DNA of 64,000 nucleotides. Source: Escherichia phage EcS1. Within the stretch, counting starts at the first letter, position 1, and every line of letters starts with the position of its first letter. The stretch lies in sequence record NC_055721.1; one strand, given 5' to 3'. The notes beneath the pieces are model-generated. The model was not told the DNA's origin. It was given only the letters and a program-made list of their open reading frames with translations, and did not search any database. Of this stretch, positions 1,616-56,297 are shown one piece after another. The position numbers were made by a program, and so were the translations under genes.

Positions 1616-1640
1616 GGGAGACTTCGGTCTCCCTTTCTTG
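1616..1640 (+). terminator. Rho-independent terminator after wac (GGGAGAC-TTCG-GTCTCCC + T-run)
   Basis: 7-bp GC stem, tetraloop, TTTCTT. Confidence 0.7.
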
Positions 1641-14671: not shown

Positions 14672-14697
14672 GGGAGACTTCGGTCTCCCATTTTTGT
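14672..14697 (+). terminator. Terminator after gene 23 (GGGAGAC-TTCG-GTCTCCC + ATTTTTGTTT)
   Basis: Hairpin plus T-run. Confidence 0.8.
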
Positions 14698-30757: not shown

Positions 30758-30786
30758 ATAGTACCACATCCTTGTGGTGTTGTAAA
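30758..30786 (-). promoter_or_regulatory. Sigma70-like early promoter (TTTACA-17-TACTAT) for ORF 30418..30729; -35 overlaps alt stop
   Basis: Hexamers and 17-nt spacer read on minus strand. Confidence 0.45.
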
Positions 30787-34845: not shown

Positions 34846-35678
34846 CGGTCCTTATCAAAAGTATAATGACATTTAAAGGGTCCAATTAATGGTTGAGCAA
34901 AGTCATGATCAACTATTTTAGGATGATTATTCATCCATTCAGCTCGGAGTATAGAATCACCTTTACCAACATAAGACTTTCTTGCTTCTTCCATGATACC
35001 CATTCTCAACATGGCATCTTCCATAGAACTCATGATATCCTTTACGGATTTAGAATTAAGTTCTTTAGCTAGATGTTCCCAATCATTAACAGCGTCATAA
35101 GATTTAAGATTAGGAGCAGTACGTTGACCACGTGGCATGTGATACGAAACAACATCAGTTCCTTCAAATACTTTAACTGCAGATTCGATATGTGAACCAA
35201 GATCGTCTACATAGCAAACAACACGATCACCATATTTTTCTTTTACTTTTTCAAGCAGAACATCTTTTGATTCGTTGAAGTCGCAAACCATGATGTCTTT
35301 AAATGCACCTGGGAACAATGCGTTCAAATTGAATTGTCTATTCAAATGAGCGTCAACACTATTGCCTAATGCAGTCACGGCCACAAAGTCGTATTCTTTC
35401 TTAAGTTCATTAACCCATTTCACAGCATCATCATATGGCGCCAAATAACGAATGAAATCTGAGTTGTTATATTTCAAAAGAAGTTTAACGGCAAACTCTT
35501 CATCACATCCGAAGATTTCACCAGGCGGAACAAACTTATCATCCACTAAAAAGTCTAAAATACCTTCAATAGGCAATTGATACTTCTGAGCGAAATAAGG
35601 CAGACCAGATTGCCATTTAACTAAGATGCCATCAACATCTGTAGCAATTACTTTACGTTCTTTTTTCTGAGTCAGCAC
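34839..35678 (-). CDS. HAD-superfamily-like hydrolase (30.2-like position)
   Basis: 279 aa; N-terminal ATDVDGIL resembles HAD motif I (DxDG), later VCYVDDL resembles motif IV. Confidence 0.55.
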   Translation of the reverse strand: MLTQKKERKVIATDVDGILVKWQSGLPYFAQKYQLPIEGILDFLVDDKFVPPGEIFGCDEEFAVKLLLKYNNSDFIRYLAPYDDAVKWVNELKKEYDFVAVTALGNSVDAHLNRQFNLNALFPGAFKDIMVCDFNESKDVLLEKVKEKYGDRVVCYVDDLGSHIESAVKVFEGTDVVSYHMPRGQRTAPNLKSYDAVNDWEHLAKELNSKSVKDIMSSMEDAMLRMGIMEEARKSYVGKGDSILRAEWMNNHPKIVDHDFAQPLIGPFKCHYTFDKDRW

Positions 35679-35895
35679 GTTTTTGAGCCTCTAAAAAATA
35701 AATAGCGAAATTTGTTTTAGGGAAAGGATTGTTAGGAGCCGCAATCAATGATATCTCACCAAGAGCAAATCCACCTTTAATAGGCATAGTTACTTTTGGC
35801 CACACTAATGATGGCCAAGGATTAGGCATCATATTGCACCTCAAATACACCATAATTTGAAATGGCAACATTGACATGACAATACTCACCTTCAT
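35653..35895 (-). CDS. Hypothetical small protein
   Basis: ORF only. Confidence 0.3.
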   Translation of the reverse strand: MKVSIVMSMLPFQIMVYLRCNMMPNPWPSLVWPKVTMPIKGGFALGEISLIAAPNNPFPKTNFAIYFLEAQKRADSEKRT

Positions 35896-36022
35896 CAGTA
35901 AGAACTAAAGCCATAGCACCATTCGGTGAAACCTTCTCAATTTGATAAAGCTTCCCTTCAGTGAAAAGTTCATCATATGGAGGGAACACACGTTTAGCAA
36001 GCAGGTTCGTAGCAATCATCAT
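35822..36022 (-). CDS. Hypothetical small protein
   Basis: ORF only. Confidence 0.4.
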   Translation of the reverse strand: MMIATNLLAKRVFPPYDELFTEGKLYQIEKVSPNGAMALVLTDEGEYCHVNVAISNYGVFEVQYDA

Positions 36023-36218
36023 TTGCAGCCTTTAAAAGGGTTAATTCTGATTCCATGTGAACAGATTCAGTACCATCTGACCATGAAACTTCATATGCTG
36101 GTTCAACCTTGTATTTCAGGATTCCAGGTGTATACATTATAACCACACCCGGGATAAATCCTGAAATATGCTGAACTGGGGTTCCTAGTTCAAATTTCAC
36201 TTTATAACCTTGACCCAT
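35994..36218 (-). CDS. Hypothetical small protein
   Basis: ORF only. Confidence 0.45.
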   Translation of the reverse strand: MGQGYKVKFELGTPVQHISGFIPGVVIMYTPGILKYKVEPAYEVSWSDGTESVHMESELTLLKAANDDCYEPAC

Positions 36219-36364
36219 TCTGGGAATTCGATGAAATCAGGAGCGTCAATTTCACAAATCATCATACCTGCATTCACAGTAATATTACCTACTTCAATCA
36301 TAGGATTTGATTGAAGGCTTTGTGATAAGCGTTTTGCATCAGAAACTTGCACGAAAAGAATCAT
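36197..36364 (-). CDS. Small ORF (55 aa), start overlapping upstream stop (TAATG)
   Basis: Hand-translated MILFVQVSDAKRLSQSLQSNPMIEVGNITVNAGMMICEIDAPDFIEFPEWVKVIK; GGGGTGA RBS. Confidence 0.3.
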   Translation of the reverse strand: MILFVQVSDAKRLSQSLQSNPMIEVGNITVNAGMMICEIDAPDFIEFPEWVKVIK

Positions 36365-36813
36365 TATTTCACCCCATAAGAAACGAAAGCTTCGCCAGTC
36401 TTTTTGACCACAATAACTCGTACACCATCAGAAGCATTTCTGAGTTGACTTACCGCAAAGTCTTTAGCTTCTTGTTCAGTAAAAGGACCATTTGGTAGAG
36501 GCAGATTGCTTTTGCTTGTAGGAATAGTGATAGTCCAGAAATCTTGTTCAGTATCAACACGAATAAACTTCTTAGATATTTCATTCTGTAAGAACATACA
36601 CCAAACGTTGTCGAACTCGCCTTCATTTGCTTTGAAGGTGCCTTTATCAGTACGAACTGCAATGATGTTTCCATCCTTATCTAGTTCAGCAACTTCAAAC
36701 TCACCGAAACCTATTAAACGTTTCCATGCAGAAGCAAAGCCTGCACTACGGTCTTCCATGAATTGTTTACCAGCTTCAGTCCATTTGTAAACGATTTTTT
36801 CAGACGTCAACAT
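36364..36813 (-). CDS. Hypothetical protein (149 aa; start reassigned to MLTSEK after GAGGA RBS)
   Basis: ORF; the track N-terminus would run through an intercistronic hairpin, so internal ATG at 36813 preferred. Confidence 0.55.
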   Translation of the reverse strand: MLTSEKIVYKWTEAGKQFMEDRSAGFASAWKRLIGFGEFEVAELDKDGNIIAVRTDKGTFKANEGEFDNVWCMFLQNEISKKFIRVDTEQDFWTITIPTSKSNLPLPNGPFTEQEAKDFAVSQLRNASDGVRVIVVKKTGEAFVSYGVK

Positions 36814-36831
36814 AACAATTTCCTCAGAGTA

Positions 36832-36845
36832 GGGCCCGAAGGCCC
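36832..36845 (-). other. Intercistronic hairpin GGGCC-CGAA-GGCCC followed by GAGGA RBS module
   Basis: Same module as 37797-37813. Confidence 0.6.
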
Positions 36846-36853
36846 ATTTTAGA

Positions 36854-37216
36854 TTAGATAGTGAATTCAGATGAAACGATATCCCATAATGCTTCACGCT
36901 GCTCATCAGTAGTTTTCATACTTAACACATGACGCAACCATAACTTAACTAACATTTTGCGATTAGAACCGTTCCAAGATGGATGAGTACCTAAATCTCG
37001 AGTACGAACATCATCATGAAAACCAACTTTAATTACTGAACCTTTCAAAGAAACATCCAGCGTAATCCCGTTTTCGAAAGCAACATGAACATAGTTATCT
37101 TCCCAATACATGTTGATATCACACACTGTACCGTTTTCATGTTTCCATAAACATACAGTAGAAACATCCCATGCATTAGCTTTAACATATTTACGTTCGA
37201 AGTTTAAGTAGTTCAT
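36854..37216 (-). CDS. Hypothetical protein (about 120 aa; start reassigned downstream of promoter)
   Basis: ORF; promoter -10/-35 lie inside the track N-terminal extension. Confidence 0.5.
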   Translation of the reverse strand: MNYLNFERKYVKANAWDVSTVCLWKHENGTVCDINMYWEDNYVHVAFENGITLDVSLKGSVIKVGFHDDVRTRDLGTHPSWNGSNRKMLVKLWLRHVLSMKTTDEQREALWDIVSSEFTI

Positions 37217-37247
37217 TTTGTTATCCAAGTTTGCTGATTGAGTGTAC

Positions 37248-37276
37248 ATAATACCACACTCAATCAGCGTTGTAAA
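37248..37276 (-). promoter_or_regulatory. Sigma70-like early promoter (TTTACA-17-TATTAT) centred in a 13-bp perfect inverted repeat
   Basis: Hexamers on minus strand; IR arms 37233-37245 and 37256-37268. Confidence 0.45.
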
Positions 37277-37279
37277 CAC

Positions 37280-37783
37280 TTAGAACGAACTTTTTACTAC
37301 TTGTGGTTCTTTAACGAGTTTGAAACGAGAAATGCCTTTAAAAACAATAACTTCATCATAAGTATTTTCATGAAGCCATGCTGCAGCCCACTCTTCTGCT
37401 TGTTTTTCGCTCAAGTTTTTCGCACGAATCAAGAAATCGGTATCTTCTTCTCTAGCAACAAGACAACCATAGTCTAAATCTTCTAGAACTGGTTCAACTT
37501 CTTTTTCTGGCTCGTAGTCTTTAACTTCTGTGAAGTACTGGTATTCGTTTCCATAAATCCAGCAATCACCATACCCTTGTCTTGAGAACTGTCCAAGTTC
37601 ATCTAAACGATAAAGCTCTTTCTTACCATCAAAGCTGATTTTTAGAACATCAGTGTTATTAACTAGTTCAGTAATCATAAACGGTTTATTGCTGAGATAG
37701 TTTGCAACTGCAGTATTGATAGTAGGCGCTTCTTCAACAAATTCAGCCGCGTCAGCTAGTTTGTACCAGTGGTTTAATTCCAT
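37280..37783 (-). CDS. Hypothetical acidic protein
   Basis: 167 aa ORF with GAGGA RBS and upstream GC hairpin. Confidence 0.6.
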   Translation of the reverse strand: MELNHWYKLADAAEFVEEAPTINTAVANYLSNKPFMITELVNNTDVLKISFDGKKELYRLDELGQFSRQGYGDCWIYGNEYQYFTEVKDYEPEKEVEPVLEDLDYGCLVAREEDTDFLIRAKNLSEKQAEEWAAAWLHENTYDEVIVFKGISRFKLVKEPQVVKSSF

Positions 37784-37796
37784 AATTTCCTCAAAG

Positions 37797-37813
37797 TAGG
37801 GCCCGAAGGCCTA
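37797..37813 (-). other. Intercistronic hairpin (GGGCC-CGAA-GGCC) followed by GAGGA RBS module
   Basis: Same module as 36832-36845. Confidence 0.6.
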
Positions 37814-37817
37814 GTTA

Positions 37818-38171
37818 TTAAGCGATTGTGGTCCAGTTATCTAAATTGATAACACCTTTATCTTTCATTTGTTGAATCAATGCTTCAGCACGAGTACGAC
37901 CATTTTCATACCATGTGCAATCTTCATCATCATAAGTCTCAGAACGAATGCGACCTAAGATGACAGTTTTCAGAACATATTCTTCACCAGTAAACCAGTT
38001 AGTCAAACGAATTTTCCAAGAGAAATCATCTGACTGACCATCAGGAGTCATGCAATAAACCAGTTCAAATTGCTCCATAGATAATCCCCACTGAAGTTCT
38101 TTAACTGATTGAGCTTTGTAGCCATCATGATCTTTGCATTTGATGAAAGCGTTCAGATTAATAGTTTTCAT
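37818..38171 (-). CDS. Hypothetical protein (117 aa; start at MKTINL)
   Basis: ORF; GGAGA RBS; promoter TTTACT-16-TAAGAT upstream. Confidence 0.55.
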   Translation of the reverse strand: MKTINLNAFIKCKDHDGYKAQSVKELQWGLSMEQFELVYCMTPDGQSDDFSWKIRLTNWFTGEEYVLKTVILGRIRSETYDDEDCTWYENGRTRAEALIQQMKDKGVINLDNWTTIA

Positions 38172-38200
38172 TTTATTCTCCATTTGTTGATTGAGTGTAC

Positions 38201-38228
38201 ATCTTAACACAATCCTAGGAGAAGTAAA
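38201..38228 (-). promoter_or_regulatory. Sigma70-like early promoter (TTTACT-16-TAAGAT) sharing 15-bp -10 region with 37236-37250
   Basis: tgattgagtgtacat present at 37236-37250 and 38188-38202. Confidence 0.4.
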
Positions 38229-38232
38229 CACC

Positions 38233-38427
38233 TTATTTTACATGACTGAATTCTACATCAGACCAGATGCCGAAAGGCGGAAGATTAGGTTCTTCTTTAA
38301 AGGCTAACTTTTTGACATCAGTCCAAGGCCAACAGCAAACTTCGTGCTCGTATAACCAGCATGTTCCTTGCAAAGGACTCTCAGGATGCATTTCTATAAT
38401 TTTATAAACCAAAGTTTTCTTGAACAT
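38233..38427 (-). CDS. Hypothetical small protein (64 aa; start at MFKKTL)
   Basis: ORF; track N-terminal extension spans a terminator hairpin so internal start preferred. Confidence 0.45.
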   Translation of the reverse strand: MFKKTLVYKIIEMHPESPLQGTCWLYEHEVCCWPWTDVKKLAFKEEPNLPPFGIWSDVEFSHVK

Positions 38428-38439
38428 ATTCACCTCATA

Positions 38440-38470
38440 CAGATACAAAAATGGGAGACCGAAGTCTCCC
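38440..38470 (-). terminator. Minus-strand terminator (GGGAGAC-TTCG-GTCTCCC + ATTTTTGT) after small basic ORF
   Basis: Same 32-nt module as at 56268-56297. Confidence 0.75.
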
Positions 38471-38475
38471 ATAAC

Positions 38476-38655
38476 TTATGCTACAGCTCGCGGCTTTCCA
38501 AAACGAGAAGCATCGTCGCGTAACACGGCTCGTGCACGACGCATAATCTTCTCAACTGTCTGATTAATACGCTTGTTCGACCCACGCTTATATTTCGCGC
38601 GTTTAGAGGTACCAACTACTTCTTTAACTGCTTGTTTCTTAGCTTGCTTAGCCAT
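38476..38655 (-). CDS. Small highly basic protein (59 aa, 30.9-like position)
   Basis: Hand-translated MAKQAKKQAVKEVVGTSKRAKYKRGSNKRINQTVEKIMRRARAVLRDDASRFGKPRAVA; stop 5 nt before strong terminator hairpin. Confidence 0.4.
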   Translation of the reverse strand: MAKQAKKQAVKEVVGTSKRAKYKRGSNKRINQTVEKIMRRARAVLRDDASRFGKPRAVA

Positions 38656-38976
38656 TTTATTCTTCCAATCTTGGAGTAAAGTTAGCTCTATGACTTACGG
38701 TTTCCCTGCATAGAGCCGTTTTCTGTTTGGTCATTTCATGGCAGACCTACCAGAAGGTTTCGTTTATTTTACGTCTAGATAACCTACAACTACGACATCA
38801 TACTACTTCTATCTGTTGCACACCGTTAGCTGGCCATAGGCTGGGTCCGGGTCAGATTTCTCTGGGATAGAATATACATCAATGACTGTATAGGCCATGA
38901 GGTCACTCGGATTGTGAATCATTGTCCATCCGGTAACATGCCCTTGCCGTAATATGAACAAGTCCTCAAGGGGTAC

Positions 38977-39225
38977 TTATTTCAAAGTCACGATGAAGTG
39001 ACGGACTGCTTTACGAGCTGCAGAACACAATGGCTTAGCATATTTCAGTTCATCTTGAATAGCCAGTTCAGTAGCCAAAGCTTTCTGAGAAGGATTCAGA
39101 TGTTTGAAATATTCCAGGATGTCGAGAGCTTCAGCTTTAACATCAATGGAAGCACCATAGTTATCATGGCCTGCATTCCAGGATTTACGTTGGATGTCGA
39201 GAATAGATTTGATTAGTTCTTGCAT
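38977..39225 (-). CDS. rIII: rIII-like lysis-inhibition accessory protein (assigned by size and synteny only)
   Basis: 82 aa, same length as T4 rIII, immediately downstream of gene 31. Confidence 0.45.
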   Translation of the reverse strand: MQELIKSILDIQRKSWNAGHDNYGASIDVKAEALDILEYFKHLNPSQKALATELAIQDELKYAKPLCSAARKAVRHFIVTLK

Positions 39226-39338
39226 TATAGAGCCTCAATATGAGGTAAAAATTAGGAGACAATCATCGGTTAACTAAGGTCCGACTGCCATTATCTCCAC
39301 ATAGAAGTGATCCTGTTAATGGTCACCACTTCATAAAT

Positions 39339-39692
39339 TTATTTATACACTACGCCTAACGACTTATAATGCGCAGCTACAAATTTTTGTTTTACTTCTT
39401 TAGGTTGTTTAATACCTAAAGCAACAAGTGGATGAATCACGTTTTTAAACGTTGGGTTACTTGCAAGATAAGGAACCAAATCACCTACTTCAATGAAACC
39501 AGTTGGAACTTCATCGCCAATGGAATGAACTTCCATTACTTCTGGTAATTGACCTTGTGTTTCTTTGCCTAAAAAGATTCCAGATTCAGATGTTTTATCA
39601 TCACCTGCTTGGGACGGTTCAGAGACAAAAATAATGTGCTCACCTAGAGCTTTAATTGGGAGTTCCATTTTATTACCTGTTTGGTAGACCAT
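39339..39692 (-). CDS. 31: Co-chaperonin gp31 (GroES analogue)
   Basis: LPIKALGEHIIFVSEPSQAGDD..HSIGDEVPTGF.EVGDL..HPLVALGIKQPKEVKQKF..HYK matches recalled T4 gp31. Confidence 0.9.
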   Translation of the reverse strand: MVYQTGNKMELPIKALGEHIIFVSEPSQAGDDKTSESGIFLGKETQGQLPEVMEVHSIGDEVPTGFIEVGDLVPYLASNPTFKNVIHPLVALGIKQPKEVKQKFVAAHYKSLGVVYK

Positions 39693-46341: not shown

Positions 46342-46370
46342 TTTAATATCCTCATTTTGTTGGTAGGAGA

Positions 46371-46399
46371 ATCTTATCACAACAAAATGAGGATGTAAA
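46371..46399 (-). promoter_or_regulatory. Sigma70-like early promoter (TTTACA-17-TAAGAT) inside 15-bp inverted repeat upstream of alc-like gene
   Basis: IR arms 46348-46362 and 46380-46394; downstream arm contains the GAGGA RBS. Confidence 0.5.
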
Positions 46400-53906: not shown

Positions 53907-54195
53907 TTTTGTAGAATCGACCAGTGATAACCATCACAGGACCATTCTCTGAATCATTATAAGTCACATTACCTGCAGCATGACCTAAGAACCATGTTTT
54001 AGTAGAAGTGCCGATATAAACAGGCTCATTGCCTTTATTGTTATACATGCAGCAGTCTTTAGACCATTGGTACAATTCATTGACTGGAATTTCTACACGA
54101 TAGATTCCATGCTCGTGACGCCAATTCTTCCAGACTTTTTGTTTCTTGTCTGCTTCAAGAAGAGTTAAGTTATACCCCAGTTTTGACATATACAT
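53848..54195 (-). CDS. Hypothetical protein, paralog B of tandem pair
   Basis: Paralogous to 53496..53906 (see above). Confidence 0.5.
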   Translation of the reverse strand: MYMSKLGYNLTLLEADKKQKVWKNWRHEHGIYRVEIPVNELYQWSKDCCMYNNKGNEPVYIGTSTKTWFLGHAAGNVTYNDSENGPVMVITGRFYKIGSEVYINPLEEHYAPNIT

Positions 54196-56237: not shown

Positions 56238-56266
56238 ATCTTACCACATCTAAATGAGGTTGTAAA
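56238..56266 (-). promoter_or_regulatory. Sigma70-like early promoter (TTTACA-17-TAAGAT) immediately after gene 32 terminator
   Basis: Hexamers read on minus strand; homologous to 46371-46399 unit. Confidence 0.5.
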
Positions 56267-56267
56267 C

Positions 56268-56297
56268 AGATACAAAAATGGGAGACCGAAGTCTCCC
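56268..56297 (-). terminator. Gene 32 terminator (GGGAGAC-TTCG-GTCTCCC + ATTTTTGT)
   Basis: Hairpin 7 nt after gene 32 stop, T-run follows. Confidence 0.8.

What the first reader, a model, noticed from the sequence alone, without database searches (positions are those of the whole stretch)
37233..37268. 13-bp perfect palindrome centred on the -10 element of an early promoter, with the 15-bp -10 region duplicated at the next promoter
GCTGATTGAGTGT-N10-ACACTCAATCAGC brackets the TATTAT -10 of promoter TTTACA-17-TATTAT. The string tgattgagtgtacat recurs exactly at 38188-38202 over the -10 of the next promoter. A perfect palindrome over a promoter core is the classic form of a dimeric repressor operator; alternatively it is an RNA hairpin in read-through transcripts.
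Basis: seen in the sequence. Interest (0 to 1): 0.45.

Follow-up and report, generated by a model that had tools for sequence, protein, structure and literature searches.

The report
Early promoter nested inside RNA hairpin
The palindrome is real, but it is most likely not a repressor binding site: it is a stem-loop that forms in RNA read through from upstream, wrapped around a T4-type early promoter, a cassette type (PeSL) already described in T4-like phages.

Summary
A perfect 13-bp inverted repeat (37233-45 / 37256-68) is centred on the -10 of a minus-strand promoter, GTTTACA-17-TGgTATTAT. The 15-mer recurs over the next promoter, and it occurs only twice in the 175-kb source genome.

The window is a T4-like phage. 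The two promoters serve homologues of T4 genes 30.7 and 30.8.

At the orthologous 30.7 promoter of about 25 other phages, T4 included, the -35/-10 spacer is again complementary to the sequence just after -10, but the stem sequences differ. In an unfitted alignment 91% of cells pair, against 34-45% in slid controls, and 9 of 14 pairs change on both sides. All wobble pairs are G:U on the gene strand. Other promoters carry unrelated palindromes.

This argues for selection on pairing in read-through RNA and against a shared operator. Two lineages with a canonical terminator just upstream lack the hairpin. In T4, 14 of 48 early-promoter candidates show the same feature.

Arbiol et al. 2010 already describe promoter/stem-loop cassettes (PeSLs) with stems overlapping the -10. 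The shared 15-mer is the conserved cassette leader.

The exact role is unresolved. It could be an attenuator or 3' barrier, or a control on translation. Verdict: a new member of a known kind, of low to moderate interest.

The parts
37256..37268 (-). 5' arm of the stem (RNA sense GCUGAUUGAGUGU). It occupies promoter spacer positions about -27 to -15, and its last U is the T of the extended-10 TGn.
   Evidence: (I22)
37246..37255 (-). Loop of the stem (GGUAUUAUGU), containing the -10 hexamer TATTAT (37248-37253).
37233..37245 (-). 3' arm of the stem (ACACUCAAUCAGC), about -4 to +9. A transcript started at this promoter (predicted start about 37241-37245) begins inside this arm and lacks the 5' arm.
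   Evidence: start site inferred from the usual 6-8 nt distance from the -10
37271..37276 (-). -35 hexamer TTTACA, preceded by G, i.e. the T4-type GTTTAC.
37280..37783 (-). Upstream 167-aa ORF with no Pfam match. Its stop codon TAA (37280-82) lies 3 nt before the -35, so no terminator separates it from the promoter.
36854..37216 (-). Downstream gene, a homologue of T4 gene 30.7 (Pfam PF06919, E 1e-59). SD-like GGA at 37224-26, ATG at 37214-16.
37278..37291 (-). Predicted outer 5' strand (AGUUCGU UCUAAGU, including the upstream stop codon). In read-through RNA it pairs with ACUUGGA (37224-30, the SD region) and AUGAACU (37210-16, the start codon).
   Evidence: MFE -32.4 kcal/mol, z -6.8. Prediction only; one search shows this masking does not depend on the palindrome.
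38188..38202 (-). Second copy of the 15-mer (ATGTACACTCAATCA), made of the end of the -10 plus the conserved leader of the next promoter.
38201..38228 (-). Promoter of the 30.8 homologue: GTTTACT-16-TAAGAT. It has only a weak nested pairing (TTCTCC with GGAGAA, GATTG-TGT with ACA-CAATC).
   Evidence: z 0.27; 6th percentile; PF06019, E 2e-40, for CDS 37818-38171
38446..38472 (-). Intrinsic terminator GGGAGAC-UUCG-GUCUCCC-AUUUUUG upstream of the 30.8 promoter. It is one of four near-identical copies in the window.
46343..46399 (-). A second promoter nested in a hairpin in the same window: GTTTACA TCCTCATTTTGTTG tga TAAGAT tctcctac CAACAAAATGAGGA. Here the 3' arm contains the SD of the downstream gene, which I take to be the alc homologue on N-terminal similarity only (MNMQLIT, compared with T4 MDLQLIT).
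   Evidence: I4; z -4.2; T4 counterpart at T4 coordinate 136335

Best explanation
The palindrome is the DNA image of an RNA stem-loop wrapped around a T4-type early promoter. [quoted passage not shown]

The only sequence-free parts of such a compact promoter are the 17-nt spacer and the first transcribed bases. These two stretches have been kept complementary.

RNA started at this promoter begins inside the 3' arm and stays unstructured. RNA that reads through from upstream (the 30.8 promoter lies 950 bp away with no predicted strong terminator in between; the scan lists one weak in-coding candidate at 37744-37758) contains both arms and folds into a 14-bp hairpin.

The element therefore acts in cis on upstream-initiated transcripts, not as a protein operator. 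Its most likely job, which is inferred and not shown, is to insulate the two cistrons. It would act as an attenuator or 3'-end barrier for the upstream message, as proposed and partly tested for PeSL stem-loops, possibly together with an effect on translation of the read-through copy.

The 15-mer shared with the next promoter is the conserved -10-proximal leader of this cassette family (ours gtACACTCAATCA[A/G]CAAA; T4 acaACTATCAACTAC). At site 1 the spacer has come to complement that leader.
For: Shown here:
1. Covariation at orthologous promoters. 53 loci gave 29 distinct upstream sequences (28 after setting aside the distant PBES02 locus), from Winklervirus, Karamvirus, Marfavirus, Gaprivervirus, Dhakavirus and T4 itself. 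All but about four pair the spacer with the post -10 region at -16 to -24 kcal/mol, using different sequences.
2. Tool-based test. On a MAFFT alignment not fitted to any structure (A2, 11 promoters), 91.3% of cells are paired against 34-45% when partners are slid. 9 of 14 pairs changed on both sides. The covariation score is 0.539 against 0.253 for shuffles (0 of 500 reach it).
3. Swapped arms. Cognate arms sum to -209 kcal/mol; swapped arms give -111 +/- 14 (0 of 100,000 permutations reach the cognate value).
4. Strand asymmetry. There are 32 G:U pairs on the gene strand and no A.C single mismatches. A further independent case is L074, where GATTGAGTGT has become GATTGGGTGT.
5. Natural experiment. 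L008/L035 and L032 lack the nested hairpin, and exactly these have a canonical hairpin plus T-run terminator directly upstream.
6. Generality. In this window, the promoters at 37276 and 46399 fall below the lowest 0.1% of the null distribution. In T4, 14 of 48 GTTTAC-type candidates fall below the 1st percentile.
7. Folding. The read-through RNA folds at -32.4 kcal/mol, z -6.8.

From the literature: Arbiol et al. 2010 (PMC2839356) define PeSLs as running from the upstream stop codon through -35/-10 and a stem-loop to the SD and ATG. [quoted passage not shown] They mark G-T pairs, and they report that one such stem lowered lacZ expression like rrnB T1.
Against: No transcript data exist for this phage. 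The promoter, its start site and the read-through are predictions.

The stem is not followed by a U-tract (it is followed by AAACUUGG), so it is not a canonical intrinsic terminator. Attenuation is assumed by analogy with RB49/phi1 stems.

A role in masking the ribosome-binding site is weak at this site. The predicted unpaired probability of the SD is 0.24 in read-through RNA against 0.69 in the promoter's own RNA, but it is still 0.30 when the 5' arm is shuffled. In the T4, Gaprivervirus and Dhakavirus versions the SD lies 15-25 nt beyond the stem and is not masked.

G-T pairs are also tolerated in single-stranded DNA, so a hairpin on the non-template DNA strand is not excluded.

Template-switch 'quasipalindrome correction', known in T4 (from memory), could perfect such repeats without selection on each pair.

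The window's copy uses a register shifted by 4 relative to most orthologues, so its pairs are not strictly homologous to theirs.
Confidence: 0.75

Rival explanations
1. Translational gate. The hairpin, together with its outer helices, hides the ribosome-binding site of gene 30.7 in read-through RNA. The gene would then be translated only from its own early promoter, or only when a ribosome finishing the upstream ORF melts the structure (translational coupling). This would be the early-promoter mirror image of T4 genes e, soc, 49 and I-TevI.
For: The predicted extended fold pairs UCUAAGU (which contains the upstream stop codon) with ACUUGGA (SD), and GUUCGU with AUGAAC (start codon). SD accessibility is 0.24 in read-through RNA against 0.69 in the promoter's own RNA. 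In the Karamvirus-type orthologues and at 46399 the SD is itself in the 3' arm. In T4, the promoters at 53942, 62796, 123092, 136335 and 166806 have the SD fully paired only in read-through RNA. The upstream stop codon always sits 3-6 nt before the -35. The T4 precedent is described in PMC3014915, section 29.
Against: Shuffling the palindrome's 5' arm leaves the SD almost as masked (0.30 against 0.24), so at this site the masking is not caused by the palindrome. Across 42 promoters, read-through against spacer-shuffled RNA differs only marginally (Wilcoxon p 0.08). The T4, Gaprivervirus and Dhakavirus versions of the same hairpin do not touch the SD.
Confidence: 0.25
2. Operator for a dimeric DNA-binding repressor that shuts off this early promoter and the next one.
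For: The element is a perfect dyad centred on the -10. One half-site recurs at the neighbouring promoter. The mechanism that shuts off T4 early promoters is stated to be unknown (PMC2988021, PMC3014915).
Against: Arm sequences are not conserved at the orthologous promoter; only their complementarity is. Different promoters in the same genome have unrelated palindromes. Site 2 lacks the second half-site, and its 15-mer is the general cassette leader, conserved there in phages whose 30.7 promoter has a different palindrome (Kc304 and a contig the size of CHI14). Mismatches are strand-asymmetric G:U. The half-site centres are 23 bp apart. There are no further copies in the genome.
Confidence: 0.04
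3. A DNA-level structure: a hairpin on the displaced non-template strand, or a cruciform. It would serve as a recombination hot spot or protein target for cassette shuffling (PeSL mini-circles), with no role in RNA.
For: PeSLs recombine with each other, and Arbiol et al. speculate about a stem-specific DNA-binding recombination protein. L032 is a chimera whose 3' half equals L014/L033 while its 5' half is different, with the junction inside the promoter. Gene content around the cassette differs between relatives. G-T pairs are tolerated in DNA hairpins.
Against: Homologous recombination needs shared sequence, not self-complementarity. The hairpin is absent exactly where a terminator removes read-through RNA, which a DNA-level role does not predict. 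A 10-nt loop and a 46% G+C stem are poor for cruciform extrusion (general knowledge).
Confidence: 0.07
4. An RNA processing site, for example for RNase III or another double-strand-specific nuclease, that separates the cistrons.
For: With its outer helices the predicted structure is a roughly 28-bp interrupted helix. It is intercistronic.
Against: The continuous stem is only 13-14 bp, and in other lineages 10-12 bp. No family match was found in Rfam. RNase III is not known to play a major part in T4 mRNA processing (from memory and from the scope of PMC3014915).
Confidence: 0.04

Closest known systems
PeSL (promoter-early stem-loop) cassettes of T4-type phages (Arbiol et al. 2010, PMC2839356; Comeau et al. 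2014, PMC4122927)
   Same: The layout matches: stop codon of the upstream gene, -35/-10 early promoter, a stable stem-loop that may lie between -35 and -10 or overlap the -10, then SD and ATG. The location is intergenic in a variable early region. Stretches are shared between neighbouring cassettes. G-T (G:U) pairs occur in stems. The stem is proposed to act on transcripts coming from upstream.
   Different: RB49/phi1 stems are typically G-run/C-run and the promoters are near-perfect sigma70 consensus. Here the promoter is the T4-type GTTTAC and the stem is mixed sequence (46% G+C) built from the spacer and the conserved leader. For the PST/T4 set the 2014 paper places the stems just upstream of the promoter, not around the -10. 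No activity or recombination data exist for this element.
Inhibitory hairpins with a nested promoter at T4 genes e, soc, 49 and I-TevI (reviewed in PMC3014915, section 29)
   Same: [quoted passage not shown]
   Different: There the nested promoters are late ones and the SD or AUG is in the helix, giving late-only translation. Here the promoter is early, and at this site the 13-bp stem stops 6 nt before the SD and contributes little to its predicted masking.
Intercistronic C(UUCG)G tetraloop hairpins of T4 mRNAs (from memory: Tuerk et al. 1988)
   Same: They are stable stem-loops between closely packed early cistrons with no U-tract. The window has such hairpins at the promoter-less junctions on either side (36817-44 and 37784-811).
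   Different: Those are short G+C stems with a tetraloop and are present in every transcript. The present stem has a 10-nt loop that is a promoter -10, and it exists only in read-through RNA.
Classical dyad operators overlapping promoters (lac O1, lambda OR/OL, LexA boxes)
   Same: An inverted repeat overlapping the promoter core.
   Different: Operators are conserved as sequence and recur at co-regulated promoters. Here only complementarity is conserved, and each promoter has its own arms.

Membership tests
PeSL cassette | Sigma70-type early promoter (-35, 17+/-1, -10) in an intergenic space, oriented towards the downstream gene | tested here: met
   TTTACA-17-TATTAT with TG, 10 of 12 consensus matches. 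The same promoter is found at the orthologous position in 28 distinct sequences, including T4. Promoter activity itself was not tested.
PeSL cassette | Stable stem-loop within the cassette, in one of the described positions (between -35 and -10, overlapping -35 or -10, upstream, or just downstream of -10) | tested here: met
   A 13/14-bp stem spanning the -10. The arms alone give -23.8 kcal/mol, below the lowest 0.1% of same-geometry positions in the window.
PeSL cassette | Bounded by the upstream gene's stop codon at the 5' end and by SD plus start codon at the 3' end | tested here: met
   The stop codon TAA at 37280-82 lies 3 nt before the -35. GGA is at 37224-26 and ATG at 37214-16.
PeSL cassette | AT-rich tract upstream of -35 | tested here: inconclusive
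   The 25 nt upstream (agtagtaaaaagttcgttctaagtg) are 68% A+T and are the end of a coding region. I did not compare this with the window's own base composition (counted).
PeSL cassette | Repeated motif shared between cassettes, concentrated in variable (hyperplastic) regions next to non-conserved ORFs | tested here: met
   A 15-mer, and about 30 similar positions, are shared with the next promoter. The leader CTCAATCA(A/G)CAAA recurs in cassettes of relatives. The 167-aa and 64-aa ORFs nearby are absent from T4 and from Kc304 respectively. A chimeric cassette is seen in L032.
PeSL cassette | The stem attenuates or terminates upstream transcription; cassettes recombine to form mini-circles | not testable with these tools
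   This needs reporter assays and inverse PCR. One indirect hint: lineages with a canonical terminator upstream lack the nested stem.
T4 e/soc/49/I-TevI-type inhibitory TIR hairpin | SD and/or AUG sequestered in the helix formed by upstream-initiated RNA | tested here: inconclusive
   The main stem ends 6 nt 5' of the GGA. The outer predicted helices cover the SD and AUG, but SD accessibility is 0.24 with the native 5' arm and 0.30 with it shuffled.
T4 e/soc/49/I-TevI-type inhibitory TIR hairpin | Nested promoter positioned so that its own transcript lacks the 5' strand | tested here: met
   The 5' arm lies in the spacer. The predicted start is inside the 3' arm. The start site is inferred.
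T4 e/soc/49/I-TevI-type inhibitory TIR hairpin | The nested promoter is a late (gp55, TATAAATA) promoter, giving late-only translation | tested here: not met
   The promoter is -35/-10 early type (GTTTACA ... TGgTATTAT). No TATAAATA is present in 37217-37279.
Dimeric repressor operator | Half-site sequence conserved at orthologous sites and repeated at co-regulated promoters | tested here: not met
   The arms differ between lineages while their complementarity persists. Other promoters have unrelated dyads. The genome holds only the two copies of the 15-mer, and the second has no partner arm.
Dimeric repressor operator | A cognate DNA-binding protein binds and represses | not testable with these tools
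   This needs EMSA or footprinting with early phage proteins.
Intrinsic (Rho-independent) terminator | G+C-rich stem followed directly by a U-tract | tested here: not met
   The stem is followed by AAACUUGG. The terminator scan did not call it, although it called the true terminator at 38451-38472. No orthologue has a T-run after the 3' arm.

The most novel reading that the evidence does not exclude
Promoter-nested hairpins could be a selected, genome-wide device of T4-like phages. About 30% of T4 early-promoter candidates have one, and at the 30.7 promoter it is conserved with covariation from T4 to this phage. The device would make read-through RNA behave differently from promoter-proximal RNA. 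For many early genes, translation would then depend on the gene's own early promoter, or on a ribosome terminating just upstream. That would tie the shut-off of early protein synthesis to the still unexplained shut-off of early promoters, as an 'early-only' mirror of the late-only gating of e, soc, 49 and I-TevI.
Probability: 0.2. Interest if true: 0.55.

Novelty: new member of a known kind. Interest (0 to 1): 0.27.

Why it matters
For annotation, a perfect dyad over a phage promoter should not be read as an operator by default. In T4-like phages it marks a composite promoter/stem-loop cassette.

For biology, the comparison shows that the stem at the gene 30.7 promoter is old. It is present from T4 to Winklervirus- and Karamvirus-like phages and has been maintained by compensatory change. 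Such nested stems are also common among T4 early promoters.

That makes a neglected layer of early gene control testable: how polycistronic read-through RNA is insulated, attenuated or translationally coupled at each internal promoter. The same cassettes are thought to drive gene shuffling in the variable regions of these genomes.

Tried and rejected
1. Operator hypothesis. Rejected on the lack of sequence conservation, the different dyads at other promoters, the single half-site at site 2 and the G:U asymmetry.

2. Intrinsic terminator. Rejected because there is no U-tract here or in any orthologue.

3. Known RNA family. An Rfam E-value scan of 35500-39500 found nothing near the site; the three hits, all with E between 0.39 and 0.95, lie elsewhere.

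4. SD masking by the palindrome itself. This looked promising, but the spacer-shuffle control removed most of the effect at this site (0.24 against 0.30). It was demoted to a rival.

5. Sense against antisense folding energy as a strand test. Not decisive: differences ranged from -6.6 to +4.7 kcal/mol. The count of G:U against A.C mismatches was more informative.

6. Existing annotation of the T4 30.7 promoter. Neither NC_000866 nor AF158101 carries promoter features in this copy. The Miller et al. 2003 review is not held. Literature searches for '30.7/30.8' and for T4 transcription-start maps returned nothing useful, so I could not establish whether the T4 30.7 stem has been described specifically.

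7. Genome-wide copies. The untruncated 15-mer scan is the basis for 'two copies only'.

8. A single consensus structure for all orthologues. The window's copy (with its CIP9-sized, PEi20-sized and L074 relatives), the Roth34 group and the Karamvirus type use other registers, so they were left out of alignment A2.

Full report
**What is there**

The window is part of a T4-like phage. Its structural genes are about 85% identical to Winklervirus phages (X20, CHI14, Kc304). An IMG/VR contig of 175,437 bp is identical over the locus.

Around the finding, all genes run on the minus strand. Read on that strand, the 63-bp gap between a 167-aa ORF (stop at 37280-82) and the next gene (ATG at 37216) is:

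`G TTTACA ac GCTGATTGAGTGT gg TATTAT gt ACACTCAATCAGC aaacttGGAtaacaaa ATG`

The consensus scan scores TTTACA-17-TATTAT at 10 of 12 matches, with an extended-10 TG. The 13-nt arms are perfectly complementary and their axis is the centre of the -10. Dinucleotide shuffles of the window contain such a repeat 0.02 times on average.

The 15-mer of the finding occurs at 37235 and 38188 and nowhere else in the window. It occurs nowhere else in the source genome. At 38188 it is the end of the -10 plus the first 13 downstream bases of a second promoter, GTTTACT-16-TAAGAT.

The genes served are homologues of T4 30.7 (PF06919, E 1e-59) and 30.8 (PF06019, E 2e-40).

**Comparative evidence**

I collected the region upstream of 30.7 homologues from three sources:
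- Kc304
- 41 IMG/VR loci
- ten GenBank phages, including the T4-species phage RB55

This gave 53 loci and 29 distinct sequences, or 28 after setting aside the distant PBES02 locus. The GTTTAC -35, the 16-17-nt spacer, the TG and the -10 align without trouble. In nearly all of them the spacer is complementary to the bases that follow the -10, but with different sequences:

| Phage or locus | 5' arm | 3' arm |
|---|---|---|
| This window | GCTGATTGAGTGT | ACACTCAATCAGC |
| Kc304 | GGTGAGGGTCT | AGACTCTCACC |
| Serratia 4S | GTGAGATAACA | TGTTATCTCAC |
| Marfavirus VAC36 | TTGGTGTAGGAGTA | TACTCTTACACCAA |
| L010 | TTTGTAGGAGAC | GTCTCCTACAAA |
| T4 | TTGGTACAGGATAT | ATATACCTGTACC |
| Gaprivervirus / Dhakavirus | TTGGTACAGGTT | AGACCTGTACCAA |
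| Roth34 | TTGGGTGGTCTGGGT | AGACCTGTACCACCCAA |
| Karamvirus type | CTCCGTTGTATGT | ACATACAACGGAG |
| L036 | CTCCGAGGTTT | AAACCTCGGAG |

In the Karamvirus type the partner arm lies further downstream and contains the SD.

Four tests support selection on pairing:
- **Duplex energy.** Cognate duplexes are -16 to -24 kcal/mol. Arms swapped between families average -10. The cognate sum is -209 against -111 +/- 14 for permuted pairings, and 0 of 100,000 permutations reach it.
- **Unfitted alignment.** On a plain MAFFT alignment of 11 of these promoters (A2), the helix I specified (columns 9-22 with 31-44) has 91.3% of cells paired, against 34-45% when the partners are slid by 1-3 columns. 9 of 14 pairs changed on both sides. 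The covariation score is 0.539, against 0.05-0.17 for slid partners and 0.253 for shuffles (0 of 500).
- **Strand asymmetry.** Non-Watson-Crick pairs in the stems are all G:U on the gene strand (32 cells) and never A.C. A close relative of the window's own version (L074) has GATTGGGTGT in the 5' arm, another G:U.
- **Register.** The window's copy, shared with contigs the size of Enterobacter phage CIP9 and Edwardsiella phage PEi20, uses a register shifted by four columns. So the pairing has been re-drawn, not merely inherited.

**What this excludes**

An operator would be conserved as sequence and would recur at co-regulated promoters. Here only the complementarity is conserved.

Other early promoters of the same window carry unrelated dyads. 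At 46399 the arms are TCCTCATTTTGTTG and CAACAAAATGAGGA, and the SD lies inside the 3' arm.

Site 2 has no second half-site. Its 15-mer is conserved in phages whose 30.7 promoter has a different palindrome (Kc304 and a contig the size of CHI14).

The motif CTCAATCA(A/G)CAAA after the -10 turns up in many cassettes: site 1, site 2, the promoter at 30786, the Karamvirus-type 30.7 promoters and L008. T4 has its own equivalent, TACTAT-acaactatcaactac, at a dozen promoters. The duplicated 15-mer is therefore the conserved leader of an early-promoter cassette family. At site 1 the spacer has come to complement that leader.

The stem is not an intrinsic terminator, because no U-tract follows it here or in any orthologue. 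It matches no Rfam family.

**Generality**

I scored the spacer against the 45 nt after the -10 for every GTTTAC/TTGAC-N16-18-TAnnnT match, and compared the scores with random positions of the same geometry.
- In this window, the promoters at 37276 and 46399 fall below the lowest 0.1% of the null. The one at 56266 is at 2.3% and the one at 38228 at 6%.
- In T4 (loci L088-L091), 14 of 48 candidates lie below the 1st percentile. By coordinate position these appear to include the promoters before dexA, dmd, vs.3, ipI, ipII, ipIII, 30.7, cd.2 and alc.

Two forms occur. In the first, an anti-SD directly after the -35 pairs with the gene's own SD. In the second, which is the form seen here, the arms flank the -10.

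**A natural experiment**

Two lineages lack the nested stem: L008/L035 and L032. In exactly these the 30.7 promoter is preceded by a canonical terminator, GGGAACC...GGTTCCC-T5 in one and GGGACTCC-TTCG-GGAGTCCC-T6 in the other. L032 keeps the 3' arm of its relatives L014 and L033 but has a different spacer, so it is a chimeric cassette.

Site 2 is directly preceded by a terminator in its relatives and has only a weak stem. This fits the same either/or pattern. The stem is kept where RNA from upstream can cross the promoter.

**Function**

Shown:
- The pairing is under selection.
- It is strand-specific.
- It can exist only in molecules that contain the spacer, that is, in read-through RNA or the non-template DNA strand.

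Inferred: it insulates the two cistrons.

I tested the attractive idea that it hides the ribosome-binding site, as the nested late promoters of T4 e, soc, 49 and I-TevI do (PMC3014915). Three results bear on it:
- The extended fold (-32.4 kcal/mol, z -6.8) does pair the SD and AUG with the end of the upstream ORF.
- The SD is predicted 0.24 unpaired in read-through RNA against 0.69 in the promoter's own RNA.
- Shuffling the palindrome's 5' arm leaves it at 0.30. In the T4, Gaprivervirus and Dhakavirus versions the SD lies 15-25 nt beyond the stem and is unaffected.

Masking is therefore real for the anti-SD type of promoter (for example T4 53942, 62796, 136335 and 166806, where it goes from 0.00 to 0.4-0.8). 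It is not attributable to the palindrome here.

I therefore favour the role proposed for PeSL stems, an attenuator or 3' barrier for the upstream message. The either/or relation with terminators is consistent with this, as are the promoter-less UUCG hairpins at the neighbouring junctions. I regard it as unproven, because there is no U-tract.

**Comparison with what is known**

Arbiol et al. 2010 defined PeSLs in RB49 and phi1 as running from the upstream stop codon, through an AT-rich tract, -35/-10 and a stem-loop, to the SD and ATG. [quoted passage not shown] They mark G-T pairs. They showed that one stem lowered lacZ expression like rrnB T1, and that cassettes recombine into mini-circles.

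Comeau et al. 2014 extended the concept to the T4/PST and KVP40/nt-1 pairs, with a TTTACW-N17-TAYWAT promoter consensus.

The present element meets every sequence-level criterion except a clear AT-rich tract. Its activity and recombination could not be tested. It is a new member of a known kind.

What the analysis adds is threefold:
- The 30.7 stem is conserved with covariation across Tevenvirinae.
- The shared 15-mer is the cassette leader.
- Nested stems are enriched among T4's own early-promoter candidates.

**Limits**

There are no transcript data. Promoters, start sites and folds are predictions. The orthologous sequences are phylogenetically related, so cell counts overstate the number of independent events. 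I count about ten distinct stem families and at least six independent G:U events. Single-stranded DNA hairpins, and template-switch correction of quasipalindromes, cannot be excluded as contributors.

Noticed in passing
window 46343-46399 (minus strand): A second early promoter nested in a hairpin: GTTTACA TCCTCATTTTGTTG...CAACAAAATGAGGA. The SD of the downstream gene lies inside the 3' arm. I take the gene to be the alc homologue on N-terminal similarity only. The T4 promoter at coordinate 136335 (directly upstream of alc) has the same design with different arm sequence and G:U pairs, and T4 has a near-duplicate cassette at 123092.
   Followed up: partly
window 38233-38427 (minus strand): A 64-aa ORF sits between the terminator (38446-72) and the 30.8 promoter. 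In Kc304 the terminator and the promoter are adjacent, so this is an insertion of about 210 bp inside a terminator-promoter cassette. The ORF has its own SD but no promoter. Its only homologues (34-36% identity) are in CC31-like Enterobacter phages.
   Followed up: partly
window 36817-36844 and 37784-37811 (minus strand): A 28-nt direct repeat, GGCCUUCGGGCCCUACU(C/U)UGAGGAAAUU: a UUCG-tetraloop hairpin followed by an SD. The two copies bracket the segment made of the 167-aa ORF, the promoter cassette and gene 30.7. Such flanking repeats could mediate excision or insertion of the segment.
   Followed up: no
window 1617-1640 (+), 14673-14696 (+), 38446-38469 (-), 56273-56296 (-): Four copies of one terminator cassette, GGAGACTTCGGTCTCCCATTTTTG. 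Three are identical. The copy at 56273 directly abuts an early promoter (-35 at 56266), which is the canonical stem-upstream PeSL layout.
   Followed up: partly
window 30758-30786 (minus strand); T4 coordinates 2457 and 50972: The promoter at 30786 has a small hairpin entirely inside its spacer (CCACA-AGGA-TGTGG). The same 14-mer sits in the spacer of two T4 early-promoter candidates. This corresponds to the 'between -35 and -10' PeSL subclass.
   Followed up: no
L032 (IMGVR_UViG_2974754850_000001), compared with L014 and L033: A chimeric 30.7 promoter. The -10, leader and 3' arm are identical to relatives, but the spacer is unrelated and a terminator lies upstream. This implies a recombination junction inside the promoter core.
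   Followed up: partly
T4 loci L088-L091: 14 of 48 T4 GTTTAC-type early-promoter candidates have spacer-to-leader complementarity below the 1st percentile of random positions. A conserved leader, ACAACTATCAACTAC(TGA)GGAG, follows about a dozen T4 early promoters.
   Followed up: partly
window 37280-37783 (minus strand): A 167-aa ORF lies between the 30.8 and 30.7 homologues. It has no Pfam match and has no counterpart between these two genes in T4. Kc304 has two ORFs at this position.
   Followed up: no
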